Source: Octopus vulgaris (lineage: Eukaryota). From it: 64,000 bases of DNA. Under the pieces are notes generated by a model, which did no database searches, had not been told where the DNA came from, and worked only from the letters and a program-made list of their open reading frames with translations. The translations under genes were made by a program, and so were the position numbers. Location of the stretch: NCBI GenBank assembly GCA_951406725.2, contig OX597836.1, forward strand, positions 43,462,001-43,526,000, read 5' to 3'. This document shows, piece after piece, positions 16,353 through 63,307 of this stretch; the first letter of the stretch is position 1, and each line of letters begins with the position of its first letter.

Positions 16353-16639
16353 TCCTTCTTTCTTTCCTTTCCCGAGCGTCCAATAATACTATAATCGTTC
16401 CATGTCCACACGTTGTTGTGTTTTCTCTTTGTGTATTCATGTTTGGATTAACTATATATATATATACTAGCATTAAAGACCCGTCGTTGCTGGGTCATAG
16501 TGCTAGTGCATGTATATATGTGTACATATTACATGTACATCTATATATATATATATATACATCTACACATAAAATACAAAATACAAAGTTATATCTTGAT
16601 ATCGCTAGTGATAACAATACTCAAAATATATAACAGATT

Positions 16640-16953
16640 GGAATTGTTAGCCCGTCTCTTGTAATTTCGATCAATTGTATCTTGTCCTCCTCTTGTATAG
16701 AAGTGTGGCTACAATCCAGCCTACCTCTACTTCGGGTGGGGGGGTGCATTTAAAATTTTGGGCGGGGACATCCTACGTCCCTGATATAAAGGTAAAAATA
16801 AAATATTTCCACTTTGCAAGTTTGAGTCGAGTACTCCCTTGCACGCTCCGTTGACTTGAACCTTGCTTCTATTGTGGCGAATTTACCGCCTCTGATTAGA
16901 TACTTTTCATAGTCGCACCAAGACACTTTTTGAAGGTGCTTTCCTCCATGTTG
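16640..16953 (-). pseudogene. Decayed fourth ORF1 (ORF1-D), downstream part
   Basis: Fragments NMEESTFKKCLGA / YLIRGGKFATIEARF / PPEVEVGWIVATLL match ORF1-B EIEKCLGD..RGKKFGTVEVR..PPEVKTEWL. Confidence 0.75.
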
Positions 16954-17197
16954 TTTTATTATTACCCACAAGGGGCGAACACAGATGGGACAATACATTC
17001 TGATGATGGGGTCAGACAAACGAATGGGTTTTTACAATAAATCGGGTTTAAAAATTTTCATGAATAACAATAAATGGACAAAAATCGAGTGATAGGACAG
17101 ACCGGAAGACATTACGGGTGGAGTGGGTGCGGGTTTAGCTCGGACCCCACGAGCCCCGCCTCCCCACTGATACTTTTGGTTGCACTTGGTATTACAT

Positions 17198-20100
17198 TTA
17201 TGTTGTAACTTTCATTCGCAACTTCCGTGCTACATCCTTCCATCGTTCTTCATACGCTCTCCTAGTCAGGCATATTCTCTCCAGCCCTATCTTCCTTTTC
17301 AGGTGAAAGATGAAATAATTCATCAAACCAGGGCCGGAGATGAACTTGCCTGACTGTAAACCTTTCATTCTCGTCTTCCATATCACCTCTTTCGCGATTG
17401 CTACTACAACGAGAAAACGAAACTTACCTTCATTCACGAGGAAATCCGGTGGGTCAATTTTTGTAATCGACTCAGTCGACAGCTGTACTCTTCGTGTACC
17501 TGACAACAGGTGTTCGGCATAAACCCACACCTCAGACACGTCCGGACAATGAACAATCGCGTGCGGGACGGTTTCCCTATCCCGCCCGCATCTTGGACAT
17601 ATCGGACTGTCTTGGCCACCGTGCCTTGCGAGTTTATCCCGAACAGGTAGAGCTCCTCTGTAGCATTGCCATGCCAGAGACTTCTGGAAGTTGTCCAGTG
17701 TCCTTGGCTCGAACGTACGTCGGAACAGACTGGCCAGCTGATTATCGTCGAGACCTAGGGTTTCCCCCAAGGTATCTTCACATTCCGCCTCTACCAACCC
17801 TCTATAGAAGAAAGTGGTGGAACCCCCACCGCAGGCGTTGCCCGAGCGACGGAATAGCAGGAGAGCCTTGCGACACTCCGTGTACCAAGTACCAAGTTTC
17901 GATCTACGATTCAGCCAGGTTTCCCATCCACCGAAACTAGTGAACTTGGGAAACATCAGTTTTGCTAGCGAAGACCACACCCGTTCACCATCCAGGTAGA
18001 GCCACAGATGTCTTAACCTCAGCGCATGTCTGCGCATCATCAGCCAAGGCATCCCTAGCCCACCCTTTAACGGTTGTTGACAGCAAGTAGAGCGTTTCAC
18101 AAGTGGTTTCCCGCCCTTCCACAAGAAGTAGAAGAGCTGTCTTTCCAACTTGATCAACCACGAATCAGGGCAAGGAACGACGGAAAGGCGGTAGGTGATA
18201 ACCGATGCGATAAACACATTGGCCACCTCCGCCCTCCCTTTCAGGGATAGCCACCGCCAAGACCAGGTCTTGGCTACTGCAGCCACCTTGCTCGTTACCT
18301 CGCCCCAATTCTTCTCTATTTGGAGGTCTGGACCGAACCAGACCCCTAGCAGTTTAATCGGACCCTCCGTCCAACGTCCCACGACGCTGTCAGGAGGCAT
18401 CGACTTGCCTCTCCAGGTGCCGAGTTGCAAGCCGACTGACTTTTCGCGATTAACTTTTGCTCCTGTCACCGTCTCGTACACCTCTATGGCCTTGCCTACT
18501 TTACATAGGTGGTCCATTTCGGTTACGATGATGGTGATGTCATCCGCGTACGCTGACACTGATTTTCCATTACCTGGCTGTCTCGGGATGCCGCTCAGTT
18601 TTCGCAGTAATGGCTCAAGAGCCATCACGTACAAAAGCGGGGAGAGCGGACACCCTTGACGAACCGAGCGTTTGATTTTGAACGGCTTCGACAAGAAGCC
18701 GTTCACCCGAACTACCGAGTCGATGTTATCATAAATTTCGATAATCCACCTGAGGAATCCAAGGCTCAGCCCGAACTGTGCCAGGGCAGATACCAGGTAA
18801 CGATGGTCGACCCTATCAAAAGCTTTAGATTGGTCTAAATGGACCAGTGCCCCACCCTTGCCAGAATCACTATTAAACCCCTCTATAGTGTACCGCATTA
18901 GATGGAGATTATCCTGAATGGATCTGCCCGGAACGGCACATGTCTGTGCCCCTCCGATCAGACCATCCGCGACACGCGCCAATCTTTTCGATAACACTTT
19001 GGCCAAAATCTTCAACTCTGTGTTTAGCAGAGTGATGGGCCTGAAATTATCAATGCACTCCCCTTGCTCGGGTCCTTTCTGACGAGAGTCACTACTCCCC
19101 GGCGCACAGATCTGGGTATAAGCCCGTTCTGCTGCCAGTTCGCGTAGACCTCCGCCAGTAGGTGCCCGAACAAGTCTGGCATACTCTTATATAACTCATA
19201 GGGTAGACCATCCAAACCCGGCGCCTTGCCCGCGCCGCAGTCCGCCATTGCCTCAACCACCTCCTCAGGCGTGATTGGCCCTTCACAGCCCTCCGCATCT
19301 CGCCCCGATAAGCGCGGCAGACCGTCGAGTAGGTCCGTAAAGGCCCTCCTCCTATCCAGTCCGCCGCACTCACCGAAAAGCTGAGCGAAGTGCTCCTGAA
19401 AGGCCTCACACATCTCCTCGGGTTCGTTTATCAACTCACCTTGTTGGTTCGTCAAAGATCGAATCGTGGCATCGTTACCATGCTGAGCTTCCACCACTCG
19501 GGCCCATCTCACGGCGTTGATTCCTTCACATCCCATATGACGGATTCTAGCCCTGACAATGCAGCCCATGTGTTTGGCCTCGAGGTGCTGGTTTAACACC
19601 AGTCTCTTGGCCGCCACCTGAGCCGCAGAGCCAGTTTTCATGGCTTCCTCTAATTCCTTAACTAGAGTAGTTTCCCTTCTAGCCTCTCTAGCCACTACTC
19701 CTATGCTATATCTAATAGACTCAAACTTGATGGCTCGTTTGAGGGCGTACCACCATTTGTTATTAATGATGGTACCAGATAGTGCCCTCTGAATTATATT
19801 CCTAATCCGGTCTTTGTACTCCTTAATCGCCAAAAGGGACGTATTAAGTTTCCAGTAACCGGATCCTCTATTTTTAACCTTGTCAAGCTTACAAGTGACC
19901 ATTTTATGATCACTGTAGCTGATCGGGTAAAACTGTGGACACTTAGCTATTTTACTGTCTACTTTTCTAATTAGTATTCTATCTAGATACGACCTGGAAG
20001 ATCCGTCGCTGTTTGACCATGTCCACAATGGAGCGTTCGGAAATTCCAGCCTATAAGGATCTGCTAGCTCAAAGCGGCTTAGCAGTTCCATGAAGCCACT

Positions 20101-20586
20101 GTTGCCTTTTCTATCTGGACACGAGCCAACATAATCTACATCCGCTTTGCAAATTGTGTTAAAGTCTCCTAGCACCACTAATGAATGCGAAGTACCAAGA
20201 AAGTTTTCTAGTTCACGAAAATAATCACTTTGCCCTGTATGGTTGGGTGCGTAAATTGCAACCAGTCTGATAACTTTACCATTACTGAACGTCAAATCCA
20301 TGACGACCAGCCTACCTTCTGGATCTGCAAAAATTAACTTTTTCTCAGAAACCCGGTTTCTTTTTAATAGGACCAACACCCCACTCCCGCCTGTAGGACT
20401 GCCAGGAGAGAAAAAACTCTCGTAGCCGTCAAACAGCGGGAGTAGACCTCTTGGCCCCTCTAGCCGGGTTTCTGTAGCAACAATAACATCTAAATTACGC
20501 GACCTGATATCATGCAGGAAGCGACCTTGCTTCCAGCCTGCTCCCAGGCCGCGCACATTTAAACAACCAACATAAATGTAATCCAT
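17198..20586 (-). CDS. ORF2: APE endonuclease / reverse transcriptase / zinc finger (about 1129 aa if one frameshift is corrected)
   Basis: CLNVRGL, ETR, GDFN, SYLDRIL, SDHK (APE); LDQSKAFDRV, RQGCPLSP, YADD (RT); CPRC...HAIVHC. One 1-bp loss in a G run at ~19060-19063; restoring it reads KG-ECIDNFRPITLLNTELKILAK. Confidence 0.92.
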
Positions 20587-20595
20587 TACTTACCT

Positions 20596-21997
20596 TTATA
20601 TCAGTGGTTCGGTTTTTTCTTCTTCTTCCTTCTCTTTTTCTGGGCCTCGTGGGGGAGTCTGACGTAGGCCCTCGAATATATGTGGAGATGTTACATCCAA
20701 CCTAAGTGGGCCTACGTCATGGAAGAAATCTGACTTTATCCGCCCGTAATCCTTCCGGTCTATTTTGTAAATTGCAAAGTCATTTTTTTCTCTACTCTCT
20801 TCACATTGGCCATGGCTGCCAACACGTTTCCGAGTCTGCTATTTGATGCTTTTACGGCCATATATGAGTTTATTGACTCTTTTTTCTTTTTTAAAATTAC
20901 TCTGGGAGGGGTGGTTTCCGTTTTTCTTTTTTTTTTTCCGATAATTTTTGCCCACCCCTCCTCATTTATCTTTTCCTCGCTCTTTTTTTCTCCGCCGCTG
21001 GTTCTGCTGTTACCATCACCTCCACACCTTCAGTCTTCCCTTCTGGGCCGTCTGACGCTGCTTCTGGTGACACATTGTCTTCTTTTCCTTTTGGCTTAGG
21101 TGCTTCCTGCGGTTTGGGTTGGGGCTGGCATTCCGCCCTTACATGCCCCTTCTTACCGCAGCCGAAGCACCTCGGCTTTCTGCCCTCTACGAAGACTGTG
21201 ACTCTTTCATCTTCGCTTATCCTAAGAGTCTCTGGGATCTCTTCCAGGGTTTGTACTTCTGCTTGTATGGCTATTATTATCTTTTGCCCTTTCCAGAATT
21301 CTTCTTCTTCTACGGTGGCCTGGAGGATGTTTATTTTTTCCTCCAGGCCTACCATAACTGCTGCCACTAGGACTTCGGCATCCGCTTCTGGCGGGATGTT
21401 GTTCATAGTGATTTTGGAAGTTCTCTTGCCTTTATACAGGGGTAGGAGAACAATATCCTCTGCTTTTATGGGTTCCATGGATAGCTTCTTCGCTACCTCC
21501 TCTGACGTGAATCTCACCTCCACTGTGCCGTATTTCTTCCCTCGATTGATATACGTAATTTTGTCCATTATTGGCTTTAAGCAGTTTTCAATCTTTTTCT
21601 CCTCTATTTTTTGGATTGCTCTGTTTGTTATACTGAATGTCTTATAGATTATTCTCCTATTCGAAATATCCTCTTGTATTTTGGCGTTTGAAGCCACGGT
21701 TACTTCTGTGCCCTCTTTTGACACACAGTCTGCATGTTTTCCCAGGTTGTCCACGTTAATTTTTTTAATTTTCTTCCCAGCCACTTCAGCGAATTTTTTT
21801 GCTGGAGTTGATGCTGGTACTGGTTTTACCATTTTCTTGGGCGACGCCGCCTCTTTTTTCTTCGGCGACAGCGCCTCTTTTTTCCTTGGCGACAACGCCT
21901 CTTTTTTACTTGGCGACAATGCCTCTTTTTTACTTGGCGACAACGCCGGGTATTCATCCTCGCTCGTCACGGGCGAATAAGTGATGGGGGACTCCAT
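20596..21997 (-). CDS. ORF1-A: RRM-like + CCHC zinc-knuckle RNA-binding protein (about 467 aa after two homopolymer corrections)
   Basis: ATG at 21997 (MESPITY); VEGRKPRCFGCGKKGHVRAEC knuckle; frame resumes after A-run indels (~20985, ~20785) and ends ...KTEPLI* 9 nt before the ORF2 ATG. Confidence 0.85.
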
Positions 21998-22228
21998 TTT
22001 GAACAAATGGCTTTAACAAGCCTTTGGTAATCTAAATTGATTGTAGTTTTCCCCCACTGAGGGGGGAACACCAACGCGAAGTCTTCGCGCGAAGGTTGAC
22101 TTCGTCAGTTAGACAACAATGGACAAAAAAAGGTAGACCAACAGTATATAATAACAGAGATAAGTAGTATGAGAGCAAAAATATATATCAACTTACTACT
22201 AACGCAAAAAATTGATTTCCTCCAGGTG

Positions 22229-24011
22229 ATTTTATTACTACCCACAAGGGGCGAACATAGAGGGGACAATACAATCGGGGAACTTAAAATAAGAAAGCGA
22301 AATGACAAGAAGGGAAAAAATAAAAATAAAAATGACAAATGAAAGAATATTTACAATGAGATGCAAATGCCCACTCGATCCCCGGAATCGAGAGGTTACA
22401 TTTTCGTCACATATAGTTCACAATTTTTTTTTTCTTTTTTCTCTTCTTTCTTCTCTCTCCTCTCACAATCTCACACGTATTCCATAATACTTTTCAAGTC
22501 TCTAAAGTCAATCACTGAGCCCTCAGGCAGCCGCTCTTTCACTCGAACACCCGTGTAAAAAATTACACTCTCTCCAGCTGCTCTGAGGAACTCAGCGACT
22601 CTTTCTTCGGGGATCAGAGCAGTCTCCTGCCACTGATCAGTCATCCTGTTGACCCACACATGTCCCTCCATACTACATGTCAATTCCTTCATTTCGGGGC
22701 TGAAATGGAAGGTTATTAACTTGTAGTAATCTTGTTTCCGTCCTACGTTTTCTCTCGTTTTTCTTTTCGGGCTTACTTCTTCCTTGTTCTCCTCTCTTTG
22801 TTTCTCTCTTTCTCTCTTTTTGCCTTCTTTTCTTTCTTCTTCCTTCTCTTGTCTTTTTGGTTCTTTGTCTGTTCTCTCTTTCTCTCGTGTTTTATGTTCC
22901 TTTTCTTTTTCTTTTTGTGTGCCGTCTTTTCTTTTCGTTTGATTCTGTTCTCTCTCTTGTTTTTTTCCTGTTGTTTCTTTTTCCTTTTTCTTTTCCTGAC
23001 TCTGTTTTGGTTCTATTTCTTTCTTTTCTTTTATTTCTTTTTCCTTCGTTGACTTATTATTTCCTTTCTCTTGTTGTTTTGTCTCCTTTTCTATGTTTTC
23101 TTTTTCATTTACCGTATTCTTCTTTTCTTCAGTTTCCTTCTCATACTCCGCCATGAATTCATATAACGGGCACTCTTTTTTAATGTGCCCCCTTGTCCCG
23201 CACAAGTAGCAGTTTGGCTTTCTTCCCTCTACAATTACACTGAGGGTTTTCTCGTCTTCGATTTCTATTCTATAGGGGAACCTTTCAATGTCCTCTTTTG
23301 TGGCCATCAAACACAGTTCTACCCCATATCCTCTCCAATTTACTGCGTTGGACTCCTTAAAGGATTCCACCTCCACTTCCTCTTCTGCTGCTCCTAGAAT
23401 AGCTGTTGCCAGCCATTCTGTTTTTACTTCTGGGGGTATATTCGGGATTTTAACCCGGACCCCTCTTCTTCCCTTGTATGAGGGCCACATTATAAATGTT
23501 TCCGCTCTTAGAACAGTGGTAGCCAGTGAGGCTGCAATTTCTTCCGTTGCACATCTCACCTCCACCGTACCAAATTTTTTTCCTCTACTCACGTAGGTCG
23601 ATTTATCCATTATGTCTCCCAGACATTTTTCGATCTCTGCTATCTCCACTCTTGCCAGTTTCTTTGTACTTTTGTCCTGGGTTCTATACGTTACAGTTTT
23701 GTTTTCTTTGTCCTCTTTTGCTTTCGCGGGGGGATTAGCTTCACGCTATCACCCTCCCTTTTGAATAGTTTTTCATATTCCTTGAGTTTACTCTTCTCAA
23801 AGAAGACATCCTTCACGATTATTGCCGAATCATTATTATTCTTTCCCGTGACCCCCGCGTAAGTCGCCATGACTAGAGGGTCAATTCACCTTCTTCGGAA
23901 GGTTTCCAAACGTGGAGGCAAATGCCTCGCGCGATATTAATCACTTTACACAACAAAATTTCAACGTCTAATCACAGATAACAACACACGTGGGTAAATT
24001 TCCTCGATGTG
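22229..24011 (-). mobile_element. ORF1-only retroelement unit B1 (ORF 22471-23870)
   Basis: MATYAGVT...CYLCGTRGHIKKEC...; own 5' UTR; 3' tail TTGTCCCCTCTATGTTCGCCCCTTGTGGGTAGTAATAAAAT; no ORF2; frameshift in a G6 run at ~23730. Confidence 0.88.
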
Positions 24012-25790
24012 ATTTTATTACTACCCACAAGGGGCGAACATAGAGGGGACAATACAATCGGGGAACTTAAAATAAGAAAGCGAAATGACAAGAAGGGAAA
24101 AAATAAAAATAAAAATGACAAATGAAAGAATATTTACAATGAGATGCAAATGCCCACTCGATCCCCGGAATCGAGAGGTTACATTTTCGTCACATATAGT
24201 TCACAATTTTTTTTTTCTTTTTTCTCTTCTTTCTTCTCTCTCCTCTCACAATCTCACACGTATTCCATAATACCTTTCAAGTCTCTAAAGTCAATCACTG
24301 AGCCCTCAGGCAGCCGCTCTTTCACTCGAACACCCGTGTAAAAAATTACACTCTCTCCAGCTGCTCTGAGGAACTCAGCGACTCTTTCTTCGGGGATCAG
24401 AGCAGTCTCCTGCCACTGATCAGTCATCCTGTTGACCCACACATGTCCCTCCATACTACATGTCAATTCCTTCATTTCGGGGCTGAAATGGAAGGTTATT
24501 AACTTGTAGTAATCTTGTTTCCGTCCTACGTTTTCTCTCGTTTTTCTTTTCGGGCTTACTTCTTCCTTGTTCTCCTCTCTTTGTTTCTCTCTTTCTCTCT
24601 TTTTGCCTTCTTTTCTTTCTTCTTCCTTCTCTTGTCTTTTTGGTTCTTTGTCTGTTCTCTCTTTCTCTCGTGTTTTATGTTCCTTTTCTTTTTCTTTTTG
24701 TGTGCCGTCTTTTCTTTTCGTTTGGTTCTGTTCTCTCTCTTGTTTTTTTCCTGTTGTTTCTTTTTCCTTTTTCTTTTCCTGACTCTGTTTTGGTTCTATT
24801 TCTTTCTTTTCTTTTATTTCTTTTTCCTTCGTTGACTTATTATTTCCTTTCTCTTGTTGTTTTGTCTCCTTTTCTATGTTTTCTTTTTCATTTACCGTAT
24901 TCTTCTTTTCTTCAATTTCCTTCTCATACTCCGCCATGAATTCATATAACGGGCACTCTTTTTTAATGTGCCCCCTTGTCCCGCACAAGTAGCAGTTTGG
25001 CTTTCTTCCCTCTACAATTACACTGAGGGTTTTCTCGTCTTCGATTTCTATTCTATAGGGGAACCTTTCAATGTCCTCTTTTGTGGCCATCAAACACAGT
25101 TCTACCCCATATCCTCTCCAATTTACTGCGTTGGACTCCTTAAAGGATTCCACCTCCACTTCCTCTTCTGCTGCTCCTAGAATAGCTGTTGCCAGCCATT
25201 CTGTTTTTACTTCTGGGGGTATATTCGGGATTTTAACCCGGACCCCTCTTCTTCCCTTGTATGAGGGCCACATTATAAATGTTTCCGCTCTTAGAACAGT
25301 GGTAGCCAGTGAGGCTGCAATTTCTTCCGTTGCACATCTCACCTCCACCGTACCAAATTTTTTTCCTCTACTCACGTAGGTCGATTTATCCATTATGTCT
25401 CCCAGACATTTTTCGATCTCTGCTATCTCCACTCTTGCCAGTTTCTTTGTACTTTTGTCCTGGGTTCTATACGTTACAGTTTTGTTTTCTTTGTCCTCCT
25501 TTGCTTTCGCGGGGGGATTAGCTTCACGCTATCACCCTCCCTTTTGAATAGCTTTTCATATTCTTTGATTTTACTTTTCTCAAAGAAAACATCCTTCACG
25601 ATTATTGCCGAATCATTATTATTCTTTCCCGTGACCCCCGCGTAAGTCGCCATGACTAGAGGGTCAATTCACCTTCTTCTGAAGGTTTCCAAACGTGGAG
25701 GCAAACGCCTCGCGCGATATTAATCACTTTACACAACAAAATTTCAACTTCTAATCACAGATAACAACACTTGGAGATTTCCTCCATGTG
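24012..25790 (-). mobile_element. ORF1-only unit B2 (ORF 24254-25653)
   Basis: Near-identical tandem copy of B1. Confidence 0.88.
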
Positions 25791-27571
25791 ATTTTATTAC
25801 TACCCACAAGGGGCGAACATAGAGGGGACAATACAATCGGGGAACTTAAAATAAGAAAGCGAAATGACAAGAAGGGAAAAAATAAAAATAAAAATGACAA
25901 ATGAAAGAATATTTACAATGAGATGCAAATGCCCACTCGATCCCCGGAATCGAGAGGTTACATTTTCGTCACATATAGTTCACAATTTTTTTTTTCTTTT
26001 TTTCTTCTTTCTTCTCTCTCCTCTCACAATCTCACACGTATTCCATAATACTTTTCAAGTCTCTAAAGTCAATCACTGAGCCCTCAGGCAGCCGCTCTTT
26101 CACTCGAACACCCGTGTAAAAAATTACACTCTCTCCAGCTGCTCTGAGGAACTCAGCGACTCTTTCTTCGGGGATCAGAGCAGTCTCCTGCCACTGATCA
26201 GTCATCCTGTTGACCCACACATGTCCCTCCATACTACATGTCAATTCCTTCATTTCGGGGCTGAAATGGAAGGTTATTAACTTGTAGTAATCTTGTTTCC
26301 GTCCTACGTTTTCTCTCGTTTTTCTTTTCGGGCTTACTTCTTCCTTGTTCTCCTCTCTTTGTTTCTCTCTTTCTCTCTTTTTGCCTTCTTTTCTTTCTTC
26401 TTCCTTCTCTTGTCTTTTTGGTTCTTTGTCTGTTCTCTCTTTCTCTCGTGTTTTATGTTCCTTTTCTTTTTCTTTTTGTGTGCCGTCTTTTCTTTTCGTT
26501 TGATTCTGTTCTCTCTCTTGTTTTTTTCCTGTTGTTTCTTTTTCCTTTTTCTTTTCCTGACTCTGTTTTGGTTCTATTTCTTTCTTTTCTTTTATTTCTT
26601 TTTCCTTCGTTGACTTATTATTTCCTTTCTCTTGTTGTTTTGTCTCCTTTTCTATGTTTTCTTTTTCATTTACCGTATTCTTCTTTTCTTCAATTTCCTT
26701 CTCATACTCCGCCATGAATTCATATAACGGGCACTCTTTTTTAATGTGCCCCCTTGTCCCGCACAAGTAGCAGTTTGGCTTTCTTCCCTCTACAATTACA
26801 CTGAGGGTTTTCTCGTCTTCGATTTCTATTCTATAGGGGAACCTTTCAATGTCCTCTTTTGTGGCCATCAAACACAGTTCTACCCCATATCCTCTCCAAT
26901 TTACTGCGTTGGACTCCTTAAAGGATTCCACCTCCACTTCCTCTTCTGCTGCTCCTAGAATAGCTGTTGCCAGCCATTCTGTTTTTACTTCTGGGGGTAT
27001 ATTCGGGATTTTAACCCGGACCCCTCTTCTTCCCTTGTATGAGGGCCACATTATAAATGTTTCCGCTCTTAGAACAGTGGTAGCCAGTGAGGCTGCAATT
27101 TCTTCCGTTGCACATCTCACCTCCACCGTACCAAATTTTTTCCTCTACTCACGTAGGTCGATTTATCCATTATGTCTCCCAGACATTTTTCGATCTCTGC
27201 TATCTCCACTCTTGCCAGTTTCTTTGTACTTTTGTCCTGGGTTCTATACGTTACAGTTTTGTTTTCCTTGTCCTCCTTTGCTTTCACGGGGGGGATTAGC
27301 TTCACGCTATCACCCTCCCTTTTGAATAGCTTTTCATATTCTTTGATTTTGCTTTTCTCAAAGAAAACATCCTTCACGATTATTGCTGAATCATTATTAT
27401 TCTTTCCCGTGACCCCCGCGTAAGTCGCCATGACTAGAGGGTCAATTCACCTTCTTCTGAAGGTTTCCAAACGTGGAGGCAAACGCCTCGCGCGATATTA
27501 ATCACTTTACACAACAAAATTTCAACTGTCTAATCACAGATAACAACACGCAAATAGATTTCCTCCAGGTG
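25791..27571 (-). mobile_element. ORF1-only unit B3 (ORF 26032-27431)
   Basis: Near-identical copy. Its G7 run keeps the N-terminus in frame; it has a frameshift in a T run at ~27135 instead. Confidence 0.88.
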
Positions 27572-29345
27572 ATTTTATTACTACCCACAAGGGGCGAACA
27601 TAGAGGGGACAATACAATCGGGGAACTTAAAATAAGAAAGCGAAATGACAAGAAGGGAAAAAATAAAAATAAAAATGACAAATGAAAGAATATTTACAAT
27701 GAGATGCAAATGCCCACTCGATCCCCGGAATCGAGAGGTTACATTTTCGTCACATATAGTTCACAATTTTTTTTTCTTTTTTCTCTTCTTTCTTCTCTCT
27801 CCTCTCACAATCTCACACGTATTCCATAATACCTTTTCAAGTCTCTAAAGTCAATCACTGAGCCCTCAGGCAGCCGCTCTTTCACTCGAACACCCGTGTA
27901 AAAAATTACACTCTCTCCAGCTGCTCTGAGGAACTCAGCGACTCTTTCTTCGGGGATCAGAGCAGTCTCCTGCCACTGATCAGTCATCCTGTTGACCCAC
28001 ACATGTCCCTCCGTACTACATGTCAATTCCTTCATTTCGGGGCTGAAATGGAAGGTTATTAACTTGTAGTAATCTTGTTTCCGTCCTACGTTTTCTCTCG
28101 TTTTTCTTTTCGGGCTTACTTCTTCCTTGTTCTCCTCTCTTTGTTTCTCTCTTTCTCTCTTTTTGCCTTCTTTTCTTTCTCCTTCCTTCTCTTGTCTTTT
28201 TGGTTCTTTGTCTGTTCTCTCTTTCGTGTTTTATGTTCCTTTTCTTTTTCCTTTTGTGTGCCGTCTTTTCTTTTCGTTTGATTCTGATCTCTCTCTTGTT
28301 TTTTTCCTGTTGTTTCTTTTTCCTTTTTCTTTTCCTGACTCTGTTTTGGTTCTATTTCTTTCTTTTCTTTTATTTCTTTTTCCTTCGTTGACTTATTATT
28401 TCCTTTCTCTTGTTGTTTTGTTTCCTTTTCTATGTTTTCTTTTTCATTTACCGTATTCTTCTTTCGAGTTCCTGCTCGCACTCCGCTACGAATTCGTATA
28501 ACGGGCACTCTTTTTTAATGTGCCCCCTTGTCCCGCACAAGTAGCAGTTTGGCTTTCTTCCCTCTACAATTACACTGAGGGTTTTCTCGTCTTCGATTTC
28601 TATTCTATAGGGGAACCTTTCAATGTCCTCTTTTGTGGCCATCAAACACAGTTCTACCCCATATCCTCTCCAATTTACTGCGTTGGACTCCTTAAAGGAT
28701 TCCACCTCCACTTCCTCTTCTGCTGCTCCTAGAATAGCTGTTGCCAGCCATTCTGTTTTTACTTCTGGGGGTATATTCGGGATTTTAACCCGGACCCCTC
28801 TTCTTCCCTTGTATGAGGGCCACATTATAAATGTTTCCGCTCTTAGAACAGTGGTAGCCAGTGAGGCTGCAATTTCTTCCGTTGCACATCTCACCTCCAC
28901 CGTACCAAATTTTTTTCCTCTACTCACGTAGGTCGATTTATCCATTATGTCTCCCAGACATTTTTCGATCTCTGCTATCTCCACTCTTGCCAGTTTCTTT
29001 GTACTTTTATCCTGGGTTCTATACGTTACAGTTTTGTTTTCTTTGTCCTCTTTTGCTTTCGCGGGGGGATTAGCTTCACGCTATCACCCTCCCTTTTGAA
29101 TAGTTTTCATATTCTTTGAGTTTACTCTTCTCAAAGAAAACATCCTTCACGATTATTGCCGAATCATTATTATTCTTTCCCGTGACCCCCGCGTAAGTCG
29201 CCATGACTAGAGGGTCAATTCACCTTCTTCGGAAGGTTTCCAAACGTGGAGGCAAATGCCTCGCGCGATATTAATCACTTTACACAACAAAATTTCAACG
29301 TCTAATCACAGATAACAACACACGTGGGTAAATTTCCTCCATGTG
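27572..29345 (-). mobile_element. ORF1-only unit B4 (ORF 27813-29204, several indels)
   Basis: Copy of B with a locally divergent patch at ~28460-28500 and small indels. Confidence 0.86.
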
Positions 29346-31078
29346 ATTTCTTTATTACCCACTAAGGGGCTACGAAGAATGGCGGACATAACAAAACATG
29401 GGGACATAGAACATTATAATTAAACTTTATGAAAATGAATTGTTAAACGAAAAAAATGATAAAATGAAAGCGATACCAACGGCCCCGTCCGTCAGCATCA
29501 CTTACCTGTCCTTTGTTTTTCATAGTCACTTGAATGTTCTTTGTCAATACGAATAAATTCCATATCCATTCTTACTCCGAAATACTCATCCATATTTTCC
29601 ACGAATTCATCGCTCATTCTTATATCTTTCACCTCCCAATTCTCCCTTTCACACCTCCCCATAAACTCACCTATGTTCTTCTTTTCAATCACAGCATACC
29701 TAGTCTCTCCAACATCATACCATTTATACTCTTCCATTAGACTTTTAACTTCTTTCTGTTCAGTCATAGTACAAATGTACGGCCTGGGTTCGATTTCAAT
29801 CTCTTGTGTGTGTGTATTCTTTTTTTTCTTTTGTTTTCTTGTTGGGGGGGAGCGGGTGGGTTCAATGTCTGCATGGATAGGGTGGGACTCAGAGGGTGTG
29901 GGTGGTTTTGGGGTAGATTGGAGTTCCATATTATTTTCTTTTTTTCCACGTATTCTTCTCTTCCTCTTACTTCCAGCTTCCTTCCATTTCTGTGTATTCT
30001 CTTCCTCTGTTTCCTTCTCCTCTGGTTTCTGCTTCTCTCTCTCTGGTTCGGAATCCATTTCTTTCCCTGGGGGAGGGCAGAAGGCTCTTATGTGACCCCT
30101 CAGGCCACACTTGTAACAACGTGGAGCCCTGCCCTCCACCCACACTCTCATGATCACGTCTCCCAGTCTGATGCTTTCCGTCAGGTCCACCAGTACCTCG
30201 GTCTCTGCCTGTACGTTCAGCTCCACCGTTACGCCTCTCCAGCCCTCGGACTTAACCGAGGCATGGAGAATATCCACTTCGTCCTCGTGGCCGCTGATCA
30301 CAGCCGCCACAATCCATTCTGCCTCCACGTTTGGTGGCACTCCCTCCACCCTTATTCGTGTAATCCTCCTGTTTAAATACGTAGGTAATAGGGTTACCTT
30401 TTCTGACTTCACCGCCTTCGCCGCCATCTTCCTCGCTGCAGACTCAGTTTTGAAATGCACAACTACGGTACCGTACTTGGATCCTCGAGTCAGAAAATTT
30501 ATTTCCTCCTCAGTTCTTCGCAGGGCCTCCTCTATCCATTCCATGGTTACAACTTCTACCCTCTTCCTTTCGTTTGCGAACACCCTGTAAATAATGGTCC
30601 TCTTATCATACCATTCCTTTCTCCTGGGTGTCGGTGATAGTTCCACCTCACCGCTTTCCTTTTTCATGTATTTCTGGTAACTTGGCAACTTGGCCATGTC
30701 TACCCCTTTCTCTTCCGCCTTCTTGGTTACACCGGCATAGGTATAACCCAGCTTCTCTTCCAAATTCCTTGCTGCCATTTCTAGCTCTTTCTCAGACGTA
30801 GGCAGGTCTGATAAAGACTCGAAAATTCCAGCCTTTTCTTCCATCAGCTTCATTGCAATTGCCTGTTCCAGTTCCTCATCTGTCGTGGACAAGTCTGTTA
30901 GAGACTCATAGTCCATTTCCTTCTGTCTGACAGACCGAGAACGGCCGCCAAAATAGAAAAAGTGTAACGCGCTGAACGAGCGAAACGCGAAACCGCATCA
31001 ACGCCGTTCAGAACCTCCACAACAACAACAACGCTTCTTGTTCTTTTTTACCGAATTTCAGGAGCCGAAAAAAAACGT
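29346..31078 (-). mobile_element. ORF1-only unit C1
   Basis: Own 5' UTR; 3' tail GCCCCTTAGTGGGTAATAAAGAAAT; no ORF2. Confidence 0.88.
29498..30916 (-). CDS. ORF1-C (472 aa, intact): RRM-like + CCHC knuckle
   Basis: TYAGVTKK, RGSKYGTVVVHF, LLPTY..R, VPPNV, VEGRAPRCYKCGLRGHIRAFC; motif order collinear with ORF1-A and ORF1-B. Confidence 0.9.
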   Translation of the reverse strand: MDYESLTDLSTTDEELEQAIAMKLMEEKAGIFESLSDLPTSEKELEMAARNLEEKLGYTYAGVTKKAEEKGVDMAKLPSYQKYMKKESGEVELSPTPRRKEWYDKRTIIYRVFANERKRVEVVTMEWIEEALRRTEEEINFLTRGSKYGTVVVHFKTESAARKMAAKAVKSEKVTLLPTYLNRRITRIRVEGVPPNVEAEWIVAAVISGHEDEVDILHASVKSEGWRGVTVELNVQAETEVLVDLTESIRLGDVIMRVWVEGRAPRCYKCGLRGHIRAFCPPPGKEMDSEPEREKQKPEEKETEEENTQKWKEAGSKRKRRIRGKKENNMELQSTPKPPTPSESHPIHADIEPTRSPPTRKQKKKKNTHTQEIEIEPRPYICTMTEQKEVKSLMEEYKWYDVGETRYAVIEKKNIGEFMGRCERENWEVKDIRMSDEFVENMDEYFGVRMDMEFIRIDKEHSSDYEKQRTGK

Positions 31079-32831
31079 ATTTCTTTATTACCCACTAAGG
31101 GGCTACGAAGAGTGCCGGACATCACAAAACATGGGGACATAGAACATTATAATTAAACTATATGAACATGAAGTGTTAAACGAAAAAAATGATAAAATGA
31201 AAGCGATACCAACGGCCCCGTCCGTCAGCATCACTTACCTGTCCTTTGTTTTTCATAGTCACTTGAATGTTCTTTGCCAATACGAATAAATTCCATATCC
31301 ATTCTTACTCCGAAATACTCATTCATATTTTCCACGAATTCATCGCTCATTCTTATATCTTTCACCTCCCAATTCTCCCTTTCACACCTCCCCATAAACT
31401 CACCTATGTTCTTTTTTTCAATCACAGCATACCTAGTCTCTCCAACATCATACCGTTTATACTCTTCCATTAGACTTTTAACTTCCCTCTGTTCAGTCAT
31501 AGTACAAATGTACGGCCTGGGTTCGATTTCAATCTCTTGTGTGTGTGTATTCTTTTTTTCTTTTGTTTTCTTGTTGGGGGGAGCGGGTGGGTTCAATGTC
31601 TGCATGGATAGGGTGGGACTCAGAGGGTGTGGGAGGTTTTGGGGTAGATTGGAGTTCCATATTATTTTCTTTTTTTCCACATATTCTTCTCTTCCTCTTA
31701 CTTCCAGCTTCCTTCCATTTCTGTGTATTCTCTTCCTCTGTTTCCTTCTCCTCTGGTTTCTGCTTCTCTCTCTCTGGTTCGGGATCCATTTCTTTCCCTG
31801 GGGGAGGGCAGAAGGCTCTTATGTGACCCCTCAGGCCACACTTGTAACAACGTGGAGCCCTGCCCTCCACCCACACTCTCATGATCACTTCTCCCAGTCT
31901 GATGCTTTCCGTCAGGTCCACCAGTACCTCGGTCTCTGCCTGTACGTTCAGCTCCACTGTTATGCCTCTCCAGCCCTCGGACTTAACCGAGGCATGGAGA
32001 ATATCCACTTCGTCCTCGTGGCCGCTGATCACAGCCGCCACAATCCATTCTGCCTCCACGTTTGGTGGCACTCCCTCCACCCTTATTCGTGTAATCCTCC
32101 TGTTTAAATACGTAGGTAACAGTGTTACCTTTTCCGACTTCACTGCCTTCGCTGCCATCTTCCTCGCTGCAGATTCACTTTTAAAGTGCACAACTACGGT
32201 CCCGTACTTGGATCCTCGAGTCAGAAAATTTATTTCCTCCTCAGTTCTTCGCAGGGCTTCCTCTATCCATTCCATGGATACAACTTCTACCCTCTTCCTT
32301 TCGTTTGCGCACACCCTGTAAACAATGGTCCTCTTATCATACCATTCTTTTCTCCTGGGTGTCGGTGATAGTTCCACCTCACCGCTTTCCTTTTTCATGT
32401 ATTTCTGGTAACTTGGCAACTTGGCCATGTCGACCCCTTTCTCTTCCGCCTTCTTGGTTACACCGGCATAGGTATAACTCAGCTTGTCTTCCAATTTCCT
32501 TGCTGCCATTTCTAGCTCCTTCTCAGACGTAGGCAAGTCTGATAAAGACTCGAAAACTCCAGCCTTTTCCTCCATCAGCTTCACTGCAATTGCCTGTTCC
32601 AGTTCCTCATCCGTCGTGGACAAGTCTGTTAGAGACTCATAGTCCATTTCCTTCTGTCTGACAGACCGAAAACGGCCGCCAAAACAGAAAAAGTGTAACG
32701 CGCTGAACGAGCGAAACGCGAAACCGCGTCAACGCCGTTCAGAATTTCCACAACAACAACAACGCTTTTTGTTCTTTTTTACCGAATTTTCAGGAGCCGA
32801 GAAAAAAAAACACGGAGCCGAAAAAAAAACG
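31079..32831 (-). mobile_element. ORF1-only unit C2 (ORF 31231-32647, one frameshift near 31570)
   Basis: Diverged copy of C1; its 5' end has a duplicated GTTTTTTTTTC(TC)GGCTCC motif. Confidence 0.88.
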
Positions 32832-32880
32832 ACCTTTTTTCTCTACATTGTATACTTTATAGACAATAGTCTTTTCTTTA
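32832..32880 (-). pseudogene. Decayed ORF1-D, upstream part
   Basis: EKTIVYKVYNVEKKG resembles ORF1-C KRTIIYRVFANERK and ORF1-B NKTVTYRTQDKSTKK, which lie just upstream of the KCLG motif found across the array. Confidence 0.55.
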
Positions 32881-34189
32881 ATTTAATTTTTTATTATCCA
32901 TCTGGACTATTCCATTTCTGCATGCTAATTTTATTTTTAATTTATTCCCATTCATGTGAAACCACTTATTCAAGTTCAAATCATTGATGCAATTTTATAC
33001 CAATTGCTATTTTTACTTTTGTCATGTTACTTTAGTTTGATTTTAATTATTACTTACTACATATAATTCAATTGTTATTATTATTTTTATTGTTAAAGTG
33101 AAAGTATCTGACATAAAATAGGGAAACGTTTTTGTTTCACTTTTAACACGTAATGCTGAAATAGTGGAGAAGATATGATATTGCTATGGACTCGCTCTAG
33201 GCCAGAAGTTGAAAATTTTTTGTTGCCCATGAAACTACATGTGTAAAATTTGAATGAAATTGGTTGTGTAGTTCTCAAGTTTTAGGCAAACACACAGACA
33301 GACAGACACACATTCTCAGTTTTATATATATAAAGATATATCATCATCATTTAACATCCGTTTTCCGTGCTAGCACGGGTTGGATGGTTCAACTGGGGTC
33401 TGGGAAGCCAGGAGGCTGCACCAGGCTCCAGTCTGATCTGGCAGTGGCCACGATCAGTTGGTGCTTTTTACGTGCCACCGGCACAGAAGCCAGTCAAGGC
33501 GGTGCTGGCATCAGCCATGTTCGGATGGTGCTTTTTACATGTCGCCGGCACAGGTATCACAACTACAATTTCCTTTTAATATTTATTTTGATGTTGATGT
33601 ACTTGACTCAATAGGTCTCCTCAAGCACAGCAGGTCGCCCTATGATCCAAGGTAAACACAGCAGGTCGTTCTGCAATCCAAGGTACTTCGGATGGGCTGG
33701 GGCTATGCGAAACTGGTGCAGGAAGCAGCCATGAACTCACATTATTTGTCGGGTCTTTGCAGTCACAGCATATCTCCAGAGATCTCGGTCTTTCGTCATT
33801 GCCTCTGTGAGGCCTAACGTTCAAAGGTCATGCTTGACTACCTCATCCCATGTCTTCCTGGGTCTACCTCTCCTCCGGATACCTTCAACTGTTTGGGAGT
33901 GGCACTTCTTCACACATCTCTCCTTATCCATCTGCAGTACATATGTGTGTGTGTGTGTGGATATGCAATGGCCCAGTGGTTAGGGCAGTGGACTTGCAGT
34001 CATAGGATCGTGGTTTCGATTCCCAGACCGGGCGTTGTGAGTGTTTATTGAGTGAAAACACCTAAAAGCTCCAAAAAGCTCCAGCAGGGGGTGGTGGTGA
34101 TCCCTGCTGTACTTTTTCACCACAACCTTCTCTCACTCTTTCTTCTGATGGTTTGGTTGGTCATGTGATATATATATATATATATATAT

Positions 34190-34399
34190 AACTAAGAATA
34201 AGGGTGTCTGAGAGACACCACCATGCCGAAATAGCAGTCAAAACCCTGACTTTAAAAATCACGTTAAATGTTCATATCGTACCATGAGATAAGACAGAGG
34301 GGCATGGTACGATATGAACATTTAACGTGGTTTTTAAAGTCAGGGTTTTGACTGCTATTTCAGCATGGTGGTGTCTCTCAGACACCCTTATTTTTAGTT
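34190..34399. repeat. Near-perfect hairpin: ~97-bp arms, 16-nt loop
   Basis: 34190-34286 is the reverse complement of 34303-34399. Confidence 0.93.
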
Positions 34400-34776
34400 G
34401 TAAAAAAATTATTACCTTTGTACGGTATTTTTTCCCATGCTGGCCACTTGATAATATCGATAATTAAATATCGATATTATCCTTATTTATAAATATATAT
34501 ATATACACACACACATAAGAATAAGCATATTAAAAGGGGTCTGTGGGAAAGCTTATTTAAATATAAGGGTTGGGAATCACTGTTTTAAAACCTTGTTAAG
34601 TGAAAGGTCCCCACTGTCGCCATGGACCACCACTCAGAAACAAACCATATTAAATAATTATTTCAATGTTTTTGTTTTAATAAAGAATTGTTTTTGTTTT
34701 TCTTGCAGGTGGTGGCGGTTGTTGCTGTGATTTCACTCTTTCTAGGAACTGTGAGTGAAACACAACAGGTTCCAGT

Positions 34777-47205: not shown

Positions 47206-48362
47206 TAAGGCGGCGAGCTGGCAGAAACGTTAGCACGCCGGGCGAAATGCGTTGCCGTATTTCGTCTGCCGTTACATTCCCAGTTCAAATTCCGCCAAGG
47301 TCGACTTTGCCTTTCATCCTTTCGGGGTCGATAAATTAAGTACCAGTTACGCACTGGGGTCGATGTAATCAACTTAATCCCTTTGTCTGTCCTTGTTTGT
47401 CTCCTCTGTGTTTAGCCCCTTGAGGGTAGTAAAGAAATAGGTATTTCGTCTGTCTTTACGTTCCCAGTTCAAATTCCGCCAAGGTCAACTTTGCCTTTCA
47501 TCCTTTCGGGGTCGATAAATTAAGTACCAGTTACGCACTGGGGTCGATGTAATCGACTTAATCCCTTTGTCTGTCCTTGTTTGTCTCCTCTGTGTTTAGC
47601 CCCTTGAGGGTAGTAAAGAAATAGGTATTTCGTCTGTCTTTACGTTCCCAGTTCAAATTCCGCCAAGGTCGACTTTGCCTTTCATCCTTTCGGGGTCGAT
47701 AAATTAAGTACCAGTTACGCACTGGGGTCGATGTAATCGACTTAATCCCTTTGTCTGTCCTTGTTTGTCTCCTCTGTGTTTAGCCCCTTGTGGGTAGTAA
47801 AGAAATACGTATTTCGTCTGCCGTTACATTCTGAGTTCAAATTCCGCCAAGGTCGACTTTGCCTTTCATCCTTTCGGGGTCGATAAATTAAGTACCAGTT
47901 ACGCACTGGGGTCGATGTAATCGACTTAATCCCTTTGTCTGTCCTTGTTTGTCTCCTCTGTGTTTAGCCCCTTGTGGGTAGTAAAGAAATAGGTATTTCG
48001 TCTGCCGTTATGTTCTGAGTTCAAATTCCGCCGAGGTCAACTTTGCCTTTCGTCCTTTCGGGGTCGATAAATTAAGTACCAGTTACGCACTGGGGTCGAT
48101 GTAATCGACTTAATCCCTTTGTCTGTCCTTGTTTGTCTCCTCTGTGTTTAGCCCCTTGTGGGTAGTAAAGAAATAGGTATTTCGTCTGCCGTTACGTTCT
48201 GAGTTCAAATTCCGCCGAGGTCAACTTTGGCTTTTCGTCCTTTCGGGGTCGATAAATTAAGTACCAGTTACGCACTGGGGTCGATGTAATCGACTTAATC
48301 CCTTTGTCTGTCCTTGTTTGTCCCCTCTGTGTTTAGCCCCTTGTGGGTAGTAAAGAAATATG
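47206..48362 (+). mobile_element. Head-to-tail array of six Nin/Deu-domain-like SINE units (184-bp period) with a single TSD
   Basis: GTATTTCGTC at 47257, 47441, 47625, 47809, 47993, 48177; 16-bp TSD TATCTATTTTGTTCTC at 47190-47205 and 48363-48378. Confidence 0.92.
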
Positions 48363-48386
48363 TATCTATTTTGTTCTCAATTCCAG

Positions 48387-48491: not shown

Positions 48492-49599
48492 GTAAGTACC
48501 CTTTGTTTTTTTCTCTACTCTTTTACTCTTTTACTTGTTTCAGTCGTTTCACTGTGGCCATGCTGGAGCAACACCTTTTACTCAAGCAAATCGACCCCCA
48601 GGACTTATTCTTTGTAAAAGCCTAGTACTTATTCTATCAGTCTCTTTTGCCAAACTGCTAAGTTACAGGGATGTAAACACACCATGCTGGAGCACCACCT
48701 TTAGTCGAGCAAATCGACCCCAGGACTTATTCTTTGGAAGCCTAGTACTTATTCTATCAGTCTCTTTTGCCAAACTGCTAAGTTACAGGGATGTAAACAC
48801 ACCATGCTGGAGCACCGCCTTTAGTCGAGCAAATCGACCCCAGGACTTATTCTTTGGAAGCCTAGTACTTATTCTATCAGTCTCTTTTGCCAAACTGCTA
48901 AGTTACAGGGATCTAAACACACCATGCTGGAGCACCGCCTTTAGTCGAGCAAATCGACCCCAGGACTTATTCTTTGGAAGCCTAGTACTTATTCTATCGG
49001 TTTCTTTTGCTGAACCGCTAATTTACGGAGACATAAACACACCAGCATTGGTTGTCAAGCGATGTTGGAGGGACAAACACAGACACACAAACACACACAC
49101 ACACAACACACAAACACACACATATATATATATACATATATACATGACGGGCTTCTTTCAGTTTCCACCTACTAAATCCACTCACAAGGCTTTGGTCGGC
49201 TCGAAGCTTTACGAGAAGACACTTTCCCAAGGTGCCACGCAGTGGGACTGAACCCGGAACTATTTGGTTGGTAAGCAAGCTACTTACCACACAGCCACTC
49301 CTATGTCTTTTAATGATGTTGACATAGGTAGAGGGAAAGTAAGGGTTATGACCACATTTTCAGACCCACCAAAACTACTGACAGGAAGAGAGTAAGTTAA
49401 CCCTAGACAAGATACAACGTCTACAAGTGTTTTGTAATGAACCAGAGTAGAAGTAAGTGCATATAATGATGCAGTAGTGTAGAAGTGTATATACCAATGA
49501 AATAGTGTAGAGGTGTATACATAGACGAAGCACTGCAGAGGTGTGTATAAAATGAAACAGGACAGGAGTAAGTGTGTATAATGATGGAGTACTGAAGAA

Positions 49600-55500: not shown

Positions 55501-55637
55501 ACGTCATTCTGTCTCATCACTATGTATTTGTTATGTCTCACCAGCAACATATATCATTCTACATCAGCATTATATATTATTTATTGTATCACTAGAGCAT
55601 GCTATCATTTATCAACAGCATATAAGGATTTAAAGTG

Positions 55638-63259: not shown

Positions 63260-63307
<48 letters not shown>

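What the first reader, a model, noticed from the sequence alone, without database searches (positions are those of the whole stretch)
16940..29346. Recurring junction motif CAC[A/C]TGGAGGAAA suggests sequence-specific self-targeting
Seen (- strand), immediately after the 3' tail at six of seven junctions: CAACATGGAGGAAAG (16953, inside ORF1-D), CACCTGGAGGAAAT (22228), CACATCGAGGAAAT (24011), CACATGGAGGAAAT (25790), CACCTGGAGGAAAT (27571), CACATGGAGGAAAT (29345). The sequence following the motif is unrelated between A, B and D. Known: many Tx1-clade APE endonucleases are target-specific. Inference: each unit carries the target at its 5' end, so each new insertion lands in front of the previous one and builds a polarised array, reminiscent of telomeric retrotransposon arrays. 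The C2/C1 junction lacks the motif.
Basis: partly seen in the sequence, partly recalled or inferred. Interest (0 to 1): 0.75.

Follow-up and report, generated by a model that had tools for sequence, protein, structure and literature searches.

The report
LINE arrays nested inside a Helitron
The repeated motif marks one insertion site inside a small, roughly thousand-copy rolling-circle-type transposon, where a LINE retrotransposon and its ORF1-only partners stack head-to-tail, likely newest first; it is a likely new variant of known transposon-targeting LINEs, and each element may inherit its landing site from flanking RNA that it carries.

Summary
The motif is real at six of seven junctions, but it is not a free-standing self-target. 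The 16-kb array (two ORF1-only C units, four ORF1-only B units, one APE-RT LINE A) splits a ~1-kb non-autonomous Helitron-like element, D. D carries a decayed ORF1 fragment and has at least 924 copies; 23 of 30 sampled are empty and hold the motif once.

The motif is the start of a 16-19-bp target duplication, often overwritten on the 5' side by a target-like leader that the element brings. It is not sufficient for targeting: only 1 of 321 motif sites lacking the usual D/element continuation has a tail, and that one is D too. A sister subfamily uses the equivalent spot in a D deletion variant that lacks the motif.

Polarised growth is supported: 5' B units are more derived in 4 of 4 mixed arrays. 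C-type units lie upstream of A/B in 15 of 15 arrays, and C removes the site, which explains the C2/C1 gap. The arrays are interstitial, not telomeric.

Closest known: Tx1L in Tx1D, and Tx1-Mar/SINEU in Mariner-N4. Not found in my searches: a Helitron host, a target inside an ORF1 relic, the C-B-A order and lineage-inherited neighbour choice.

The parts
32834..33336 (-). Left half of host element D: non-autonomous Helitron-like, A|TC 5' end, (CTGT)n tract, ends at ...GTAGAGAAAAAAG. The ATTTGAAC+motif of the empty site is missing here (target truncation at C's 5' junction).
31078..32833 (-). C2: ORF1-only non-autonomous unit (ORF1 frameshifted), shared tail. Followed directly by the C1 start, no motif.
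29345..31077 (-). C1: ORF1-only unit with an intact 472-aa ORF1 (30916-29498). Member of the C subclade that is followed by the motif.
29333..29344 (-). Junction motif ACATGGAGGAAA (C1|B1)
27571..29332 (-). B1: ORF1-only unit (frameshifted), ORF1 with CCHC knuckle
27559..27570 (-). Junction motif ACCTGGAGGAAA (B1|B2)
25790..27558 (-). B2: ORF1-only unit
25778..25789 (-). Junction motif ACATGGAGGAAA (B2|B3)
24011..25777 (-). B3: ORF1-only unit
23999..24010 (-). Junction motif variant ACATCGAGGAAA (B3|B4); the same variant occurs at two unlinked loci
22228..23998 (-). B4: ORF1-only unit (PF00098 zinc knuckle, E 7.5e-5)
22216..22227 (-). Junction motif ACCTGGAGGAAA (B4|A); differs from the local target allele ACAT, so likely brought by A
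16952..22215 (-). A: full-length L1/Tx1-type LINE. ORF1 21997-20969 (broken). ORF2 20586-17198 with APE, RT and zf-RVT, split by a frameshift near 19.06 kb; other copies have an intact 1129-1131-aa ORF2. AATAAA ends 3 nt before the element end; no poly(A).
16940..16951 (-). Terminal motif ACATGGAGGAAA, the target's own sequence (start of the target duplication)
16467..16939 (-). Right half of D: rest of the decayed ORF1-like fragment, subterminal hairpin at 16496-16478, CTAG|T 3' end

Best explanation
The motif is the left part of an insertion site inside a ~1-kb Helitron-like repeat (D) that an APE-RT LINE (A) and its ORF1-only partners (B, C) occupy again and again; it likely reappears between units because each insertion duplicates the site and each RNA likely starts with a target-like leader.

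Shown from sequence: (1) empty D sites hold the motif once; (2) arrays split D at AAC|A; (3) 5'-truncated and off-target copies have 16-19-bp duplications; (4) 5' junction variants are element-borne; (5) unit order is C-B-A and B age is polarised.

Inferred: the ORF2 endonuclease nicks at AAC|A using sequence upstream in D. Reverse transcription starts at the tail. The second nick falls about 16-17 nt downstream. The cDNA end pairs with this overhang through the leader, which gives a mosaic ~12-nt motif. Only the 5' copy keeps the upstream D sequence, so the next unit lands in front. C-type units replace the site with their own start, which blocks A/B but not C.
For: Host and site: at least 924 D right halves, 23 of 30 empty; both D halves flank the window array.
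Independent insertion: 37 occupied D hosts differ by 6.6% on average (minimum 2.1%) and mix with empty copies, while A copies on different chromosomes are often 99% alike. The window's C1 and C2 are 2.9% apart but 0.17% from copies on other chromosomes.
True duplications of 16-19 bp. Private local alleles are copied through whole arrays (ATCTGG x3 at C1:108.57 Mb; AGCGAGG x5 across three B subfamilies at C1:118.75 Mb).
Leader: 29 of 33 terminal motifs but only 2 of 14 left-end motifs equal D's two main alleles. All 7 'D-left + TGTC[CGT]GAAA' sites are followed by an element start and none by D. One non-D locus (L189) shows a D-derived GATTT..AACA+leader piece in front of A.
Motif not sufficient: 1 of 321, and that one is D, against 5 of 30 D sites with the same strict tail (Fisher p 2e-5).
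Upstream context: all 11 informative arrays at AAC|AATTCCAGTCTG are in the deletion variant of D, although full-length D holds the same 12-mer about 295 bp downstream and is about 6 times commoner by pattern counts.
Polarity: in a B tree rooted on divergent B copies, the 5' unit is more derived in 27 of 27 within-array pairs that differ by at least 0.02, from 4 of 4 mixed arrays.
Against: No biochemistry: nick positions and recognition are inferred from junctions. The D-deletion-targeting copies form their own endonuclease clade (20-29 of 240 residues differ), so this does not show that one enzyme ignores the motif. A simpler age proxy, distance to the nearest copy elsewhere, showed no significant polarity (B rho 0.29, p 0.15; C rho -0.12). 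The 27 pairs are not independent. Some arrays grew partly by local duplication (12 near-identical C units at C2:138.77 Mb). The left-end sample may under-count exact motifs: 7 of 11 hits were exact D-left+motif+element junctions. 24 of 98 tails lie outside D. The model alone does not explain why A is the 3'-most unit in 34 of 34 mixed A/B arrays.
Confidence: 0.8

Rival explanations
1. Flank-guided targeting (an addition to the main model). AATAAA lies 3-6 nt from the element end, so transcripts would be cleaved about 10-30 nt further on, inside the neighbour's leader or D. This 3' read-through would pair with the nicked strand and bias each lineage to land in front of the same kind of neighbour as its donor.
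For: AATAAA position and absence of poly(A) at all seven window junctions. Among C units, which encode no endonuclease, 7 of the 10 followed by the motif fall in one 8-member clade: 5 changes on the tree against 9.4 in shuffles, p 0.0002. A is 3'-most in 34 of 34 mixed arrays (counted by eye). One A copy (L177) carries the leader of its relatives' site and sits in an unrelated site that matches that leader at all but two positions. Off-target flanks begin with the same 3-4 nt as the lineage's usual flank (ACAT/ACC, ATT or GAT). Precedent: 3' target sequence on R2Ol RNA raises retrotransposition (PMC6530143, passages).
Against: Kin share labels and 12 of the 48 C units come from one array, so the tree p value is inflated. 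Target classes of A track endonuclease clades. Cb-Ca pairs at four loci could have moved as dimers. ORF1p or a second autonomous partner (A2) could set the bias. No transcript ends were seen.
Confidence: 0.4
2. One reading: the endonuclease recognises CAC[A/C]TGGAGGAAA itself and the elements target themselves.
For: The motif is at 125 of 383 tails. Leaders resemble it. Occupied sites are re-hit over time: arrays reach 10-15 units while most D copies are empty.
Against: None of at least 320 motif sites without the D/element continuation is used. Strongly changed variants (GTGTCGGAAA, GGCTCCAAG) are re-targeted. Arrays are flanked by D halves.
Confidence: 0.08
3. The arrays are local tandem duplications or Helitron-carried composites, so the junctions are copies of one event.
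For: B1-B4 are about 98-99% identical. 11 of 26 B and 17 of 43 C units have their nearest relative in the same array. Two C'-B2-A arrays are 97.8% identical over 8.5 kb.
Against: Most units are closest to copies on other chromosomes. The window's six motifs and four B starts differ from each other. D hosts are far more diverged than their passengers.
Confidence: 0.07
4. Whole arrays form in one event by template jumping: ORF2p copies A first, then jumps to B/C RNAs whose 3' read-through pairs with the cDNA leader.
For: Explains A-last order and two units at one off-target nick (L189, C3:38.18 Mb).
Against: B subfamily age changes stepwise along arrays over 4-11% divergence, which needs insertions spread over time. 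It may account for short blocks only.
Confidence: 0.1

Closest known systems
Tx1L in Tx1D (Xenopus laevis)
   Same: An APE-type LINE inserted at a fixed site in a non-autonomous DNA transposon (PMC4494074, passage).
   Different: The host here is Helitron-like, not piggyBac; the site lies in a captured ORF1 relic; long mixed arrays with ORF1-only partners.
Tx1-Mar and SINEU-3 in Mariner-N4_AMi (crocodilians)
   Same: Autonomous and non-autonomous partners share a site in a DNA transposon; tandem copies sandwich a TSD and were read as sequential insertions; 5' extensions come from the host transposon (PMC4494074, passages).
   Different: The partners here are coding ORF1-only elements, not snRNA-headed SINEs; arrays reach 10-15 units with fixed order and age polarity; C destroys the site.
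HAL1 (half-L1)
   Same: Non-autonomous LINE derivative encoding only ORF1p (PMC5753468, passage).
   Different: B and C ORF1s are only about 33-37% identical to A's over the core; they share A's 3' tail, are site-specific and form arrays.
HeT-A / TART / TAHRE telomeric arrays
   Same: Polarised head-to-tail arrays of ORF1-only and RT-encoding units; a unit's transcript can include neighbour sequence (PMC4700185, passages).
   Different: Interstitial, with target duplications, inside a Helitron-like host. HeT-A adds to chromosome ends without need for an endonuclease.
R1/R2 rDNA elements
   Same: Target sequence carried at the RNA ends aids 3' priming and 5' joining (R2Ol, PMC6530143, passages; R1Bm seen only as a cited title). 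Tandem R1 copies separated by duplications: recalled, no call.
   Different: Different clades and an rDNA target; here the flank differs between donors, so it could be heritable.

Membership tests
Tx1 clade LINE | ORF2 with N-terminal APE, RT and C-terminal cysteine-rich finger | tested here: met
   PF03372, PF00078, PF13966; intact 1131-aa copies
Tx1 clade LINE | ORF1 with CCHC zinc knuckle | tested here: met
   PF00098 in B; the CX2CX4HX4C pattern is visible in A, B and C; atlas neighbours are CCHC/ZCCHC3-like clusters
Tx1 clade LINE | RT groups with named Tx1 elements in a phylogeny | tested here: inconclusive
   No curated Tx1/L1 references were at hand. The only hits named after a LINE clade among the close RT matches carry automatic 'Transposon TX1' labels (38% and 26% identity); one weak hit is labelled jockey-like. 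No tree was built.
Tx1 clade LINE | Target preference with TSD | tested here: met
   About 74 of 98 tails in D or D-deletion arrays; TSD 16-19 bp
Tx1 clade LINE | Endonuclease sets the specificity | not testable with these tools
   Endonuclease clades track target classes; no assay
Non-autonomous Helitron (host D) | 5' TC and 3' CTAG, inserted between A and T | tested here: met
   Window: A|TC at 33336, CTAG|T at 16467. Hairpin+CTAG|T in 16 of 21 D and 13 of 22 D-deletion copies with a hairpin found; A|TC in 9 of 17 and 21 of 26 with a 5' end found; many other 5' ends merge into (TA)n.
Non-autonomous Helitron (host D) | Short hairpin about 10 nt before the 3' end | tested here: met
   16496-16478, 5-bp stem, -3.7 kcal/mol
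Non-autonomous Helitron (host D) | Autonomous RepHel partner with the same ends | not tested
   no search made
HAL1-like ORF1-only retroposon (B, C) | ORF1 only, LINE-like 3' tail, interspersed with TSD | tested here: met
   single B copies in D (L208 and C1:124.82 Mb)
Telomeric retrotransposon array | Located at chromosome ends | tested here: not met
   43.5 of 50.6 Mb; arrays mid-chromosome on many contigs
Self-targeting element (Zepp-like; recalled) | Primary target lies within the element | tested here: not met
   The homologous ORF1 position in A, B and C does not carry the site; the primary target is in D. Later units do enter D-element junctions.

The most novel reading that the evidence does not exclude
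Target choice is inherited through RNA. Because the poly(A) signal sits at the very end of each unit, every transcript carries its donor's downstream neighbour as a short guide. Endonuclease-less B and C lineages therefore land in front of the same kind of neighbour as their parent, which yields the C-B-A order and lets lineages switch targets (D, D-deletion, another repeat). The original site lies in an ORF1 relic of a sister lineage that a Helitron captured and amplified into more than a thousand landing pads.
Probability: 0.35. Interest if true: 0.75.

Novelty: new variant of a known kind. Interest (0 to 1): 0.52.

Why it matters
LINEs that target other transposons, and tandem copies separated by a TSD, are known. 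This case adds a Helitron-like host, a site inside a relic of the LINE family's own ORF1, at least four ORF1-only lineages, and dozens of ordered arrays that record insertion history. It is a natural experiment on an open question: how much of APE-LINE specificity comes from the endonuclease and how much from RNA-DNA pairing at the two junctions. Intact 1131-aa ORF2 copies and three target classes with matching endonuclease clades make that testable.

Tried and rejected
Small-RNA target: no Rfam match beyond microsatellite noise.

Intact parent of D's ORF1 fragment: the pattern for the in-frame version found 125 sites. Of the 10 read, the two with D ends located were older D copies and all ten carried stops or shifts, so no parent element was found.

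Age polarity by nearest-copy distance or private changes: not significant; the rooted tree worked.

Expression: no RNA holder listed on record. Four 'RNA?' contig sets covered A but cannot show starts, ends or strand, and gave no poly(A) junction; this is no evidence either way.

Clade placement: homolog and atlas searches gave mostly unnamed hits.

A first junction script missed A/B tails through a pattern error and was redone; in turn misses C tails.

Literature: searches found no report of a Tx1/L1-type element targeting a Helitron or of these arrays. Repbase entries, subscription papers and supplements (for example the repeat library of PMC13282606) were not seen and could hold these families. 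The Tx1L endonuclease paper was not held.

Earlier-findings look-ups were empty.

Rejected: telomeric role, motif as part of the 3' tail, Helitron co-mobilisation as the main source.
Full report
OBSERVATION. The window holds 32 near-matches against 19.1 expected. On the minus strand the region reads C2, C1, B1-B4, A. A has ORF1 and an APE-RT-zinc-finger ORF2, split here by a frameshift; intact 1129-1131-aa ORF2s exist in other copies. B and C carry only an ORF1 homologue, about 33-37% identical to A's over the core. The genome is 2.8 Gb. The best named RT hit is from Argonauta hians at 64%, so an octopod host is likely; this is inference.

THE TARGET IS A HELITRON-LIKE REPEAT. The sequence after the last motif is shared by many loci for about 480 bp and ends in a hairpin followed by CTAG|T. 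It has at least 924 copies. Of the first 30, 23 have no tail in front and read ...GTAGAGAAAAAAGATTTGAAC|AC[A/C]TGGAGGAAAGCACC. The left part of that sequence is found at 32834-33336 in the window, starting A|TC. So the 16-kb array splits one ~1-kb element, D, with Helitron ends. D contains a decayed ORF1 fragment (tblastn with A's ORF1, best E 2.5e-15), and the motif encodes its H-M/L-E-E. The homologous codons in A, B and C do not form the site. An older in-frame D variant has at least 125 copies. The right halves of 37 occupied D copies differ by 6.6% on average and mix with empty copies in a tree, so the LINEs came after D had spread.

HOW SPECIFIC. 125 of 383 strict A/B tails have GGAGGAAA[G/T] next. 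I read the flanks of the first 100 listed tails, which gave 98 distinct contexts: 32 end on D's right half, 33 lie inside arrays before a motif-like leader (9 of these re-classed by eye from the script's 'other' group), 9 belong to a second site (one doubtful), and 24 lie elsewhere, many of them short or divergent copies. The motif alone is not enough. Of 321 genomic [A/C]AC[A/C]TGGAGGAAA[A/C] sites only 1 has a tail, and it is a D copy with one substitution; 5 of 30 D sites have such a tail (p 2e-5). The second site is in a D variant (at least 147 copies; 29 of 30 read are empty) in which about 300 bp including the motif are deleted. There, at least 15 tails sit at ...AAAAAAGAAGAGCTAAC|AATTCCAGTCTG, just behind the same upstream sequence. 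All 11 arrays with an informative left end are in the deletion variant, although full-length D carries the same downstream 12-mer; five others were uninformative. Against over-reading: these A copies form their own endonuclease clade, 20-29 residues of 240 away, and a third clade of three copies uses a different repeat.

WHY THE MOTIF RECURS. Two sources are visible. First, target duplication. Truncated and off-target copies have 16-19-bp duplications. Private alleles run through whole arrays, for example ATCTGG three times at C1:108.57 Mb and AGCGAGG five times across three B subfamilies at C1:118.75 Mb. Second, a leader brought by the element. Only 30 of 59 units have identical 12-mers on both sides; 29 of 33 terminal motifs but 2 of 14 left-end motifs equal D's main alleles (one search found 7 further exact left ends among 11 hits, so exact cases are not rare). 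Variants such as TGTC[CGT]GAAA and GGCTCCAAG recur on different chromosomes, and in 7 of 7 cases D-left plus TGTC[CGT]GAAA is followed by an element start, never by D. At one non-D locus a piece of D's upstream sequence plus leader precedes A (L189). In 17 of 29 mismatched pairs the first 4 nt agree, as expected for a target/leader mosaic. In the window all four adjacent motif pairs scored differ. I infer pairing of the cDNA end with the ~16-nt overhang through the leader, as described for upstream target sequence on R2 RNA (PMC6530143, passages).

POLARITY AND ORDER. Most units are closest to copies elsewhere (same-array nearest: B 11 of 26; C 17 of 43, 12 of them from one locally amplified array). 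Nearest-copy distance gave no significant age gradient. A B tree rooted on four divergent B copies is ladder-like, however, and the 5' unit is the more derived in 27 of 27 pairs differing by at least 0.02, from 4 of 4 mixed arrays (52 units). The window's four B units are too alike to order. C-type 5' junctions cut D short at ...GAGAAAAAAG|G and bring no motif. In 15 of 15 arrays that hold both kinds, no A or B lies upstream of a C; a different autonomous family with C-like ends, A2, does so once (counted by eye). That explains the C2/C1 junction. A is the 3'-most unit seen in 34 of 34 arrays with A and B; in 3 a further A lies upstream of B, four run past the fetched stretch or are truncated, and one A2-B array was left out. 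B-only arrays exist. Simple sequential insertion does not predict this asymmetry.

THE BOLDER READING. AATAAA ends 3-6 nt before each unit's end and no poly(A) follows. By the usual 10-30-nt spacing (textbook knowledge) the transcript would end inside the next unit's leader or in D, and that piece is complementary to the priming strand. Among 48 C units, 7 of the 10 followed by the motif fall in one clade of 8 (5 changes against 9.4 in shuffles), although C has no endonuclease. One A copy landed in an unrelated site matching its relatives' flank at all but two positions (L177). R2Ol shows that 3' target sequence on the RNA strongly raises insertion (PMC6530143, passages), and 3'-end/target similarity is discussed for several LINEs (PMC3649969, passages). 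Dimers, ORF1p-directed targeting or different helper LINEs could explain the same pattern, and kinship inflates the tree statistic. I give it 0.35-0.4.

COMPARISON. Tx1L enters the DNA transposon Tx1D; Tx1-Mar and SINEU-3 enter Mariner-N4, with tandem copies sandwiching a TSD (PMC4494074, passages). HAL1 is the ORF1-only precedent (PMC5753468, passage). HeT-A/TART arrays are similar in layout but terminal (PMC4700185, passages), while this window is 7 Mb from its contig end. A recent Octopus vulgaris repeat paper lists 13 recently active L1-Tx1 families; the passages I saw do not describe targets or nesting (PMC13282606; supplements not seen). Tx1 membership fits by architecture and behaviour but was not settled by a tree. 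My nine topic searches found no Helitron-targeting case; Repbase was not searchable.

VERDICT. Observation confirmed; interpretation partly right. A new variant of transposon-targeting LINEs with ORF1-only partners, interest 0.52.

Noticed in passing
window 48314-48359 and 53339-53384; genome-wide hits: An abundant short repeat ends in nearly the same tail as B (87% over 47 bp). Many of the 473 C-type tail hits are this family at unrelated sites, and contig depth at the B tail is very high in four runs. Likely a SINE mobilised by this LINE group.
   Followed up: partly
G000:C1:108.56 Mb (L080, L171): A second autonomous family, A2 (about 76% to A, 1128-aa ORF2), with a C-like tail and C-like 5' end sits upstream of C units; likely the helper of C.
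   Followed up: partly
L102/L103, L190, L177: An A subclade with its own endonuclease variant inserts in another repeat (flanks 91% alike, elements 96-98%) with duplication AACTGAATACTC; the host repeat was not identified.
   Followed up: partly
L005, L030, L183, L193, L210: Short or older A-like copies (about 83% where scored) insert at dispersed sites, mostly C|GAT, with 16-18-bp duplications: a relaxed-specificity relative.
   Followed up: partly
L031-L060: The D subfamily with GCACCTTCG/GCACATTCG is occupied more often (6 of 13) than the one with GCACCATC/GCACAATC (1 of 17); p 0.025.
   Followed up: partly
L195 and L197 (C4:26.04 and 70.03 Mb): Two arrays of the same C'-B2-A make-up are 97.8% identical over 8.5 kb, yet their D right halves are not each other's nearest relatives: possible multi-unit transposition or conversion.
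   Followed up: no
G000:C2:138.76-138.79 Mb: At least 13 C units, most nearly identical and several sharing a private spacer: local tandem amplification on top of insertion.
   Followed up: partly
window 47256-48365, 48558-49044, 49425-51073, 54593-55541: Several unrelated tandem repeats (periods of about 184, 120, 62 and 90 bp) seen in the self-comparison.
   Followed up: no
window 33938-34159, 55635-55841, 60956-61474, 63286-63507: Another interspersed repeat with several copies in the window, and an inverted repeat at 34187-34402.
   Followed up: no
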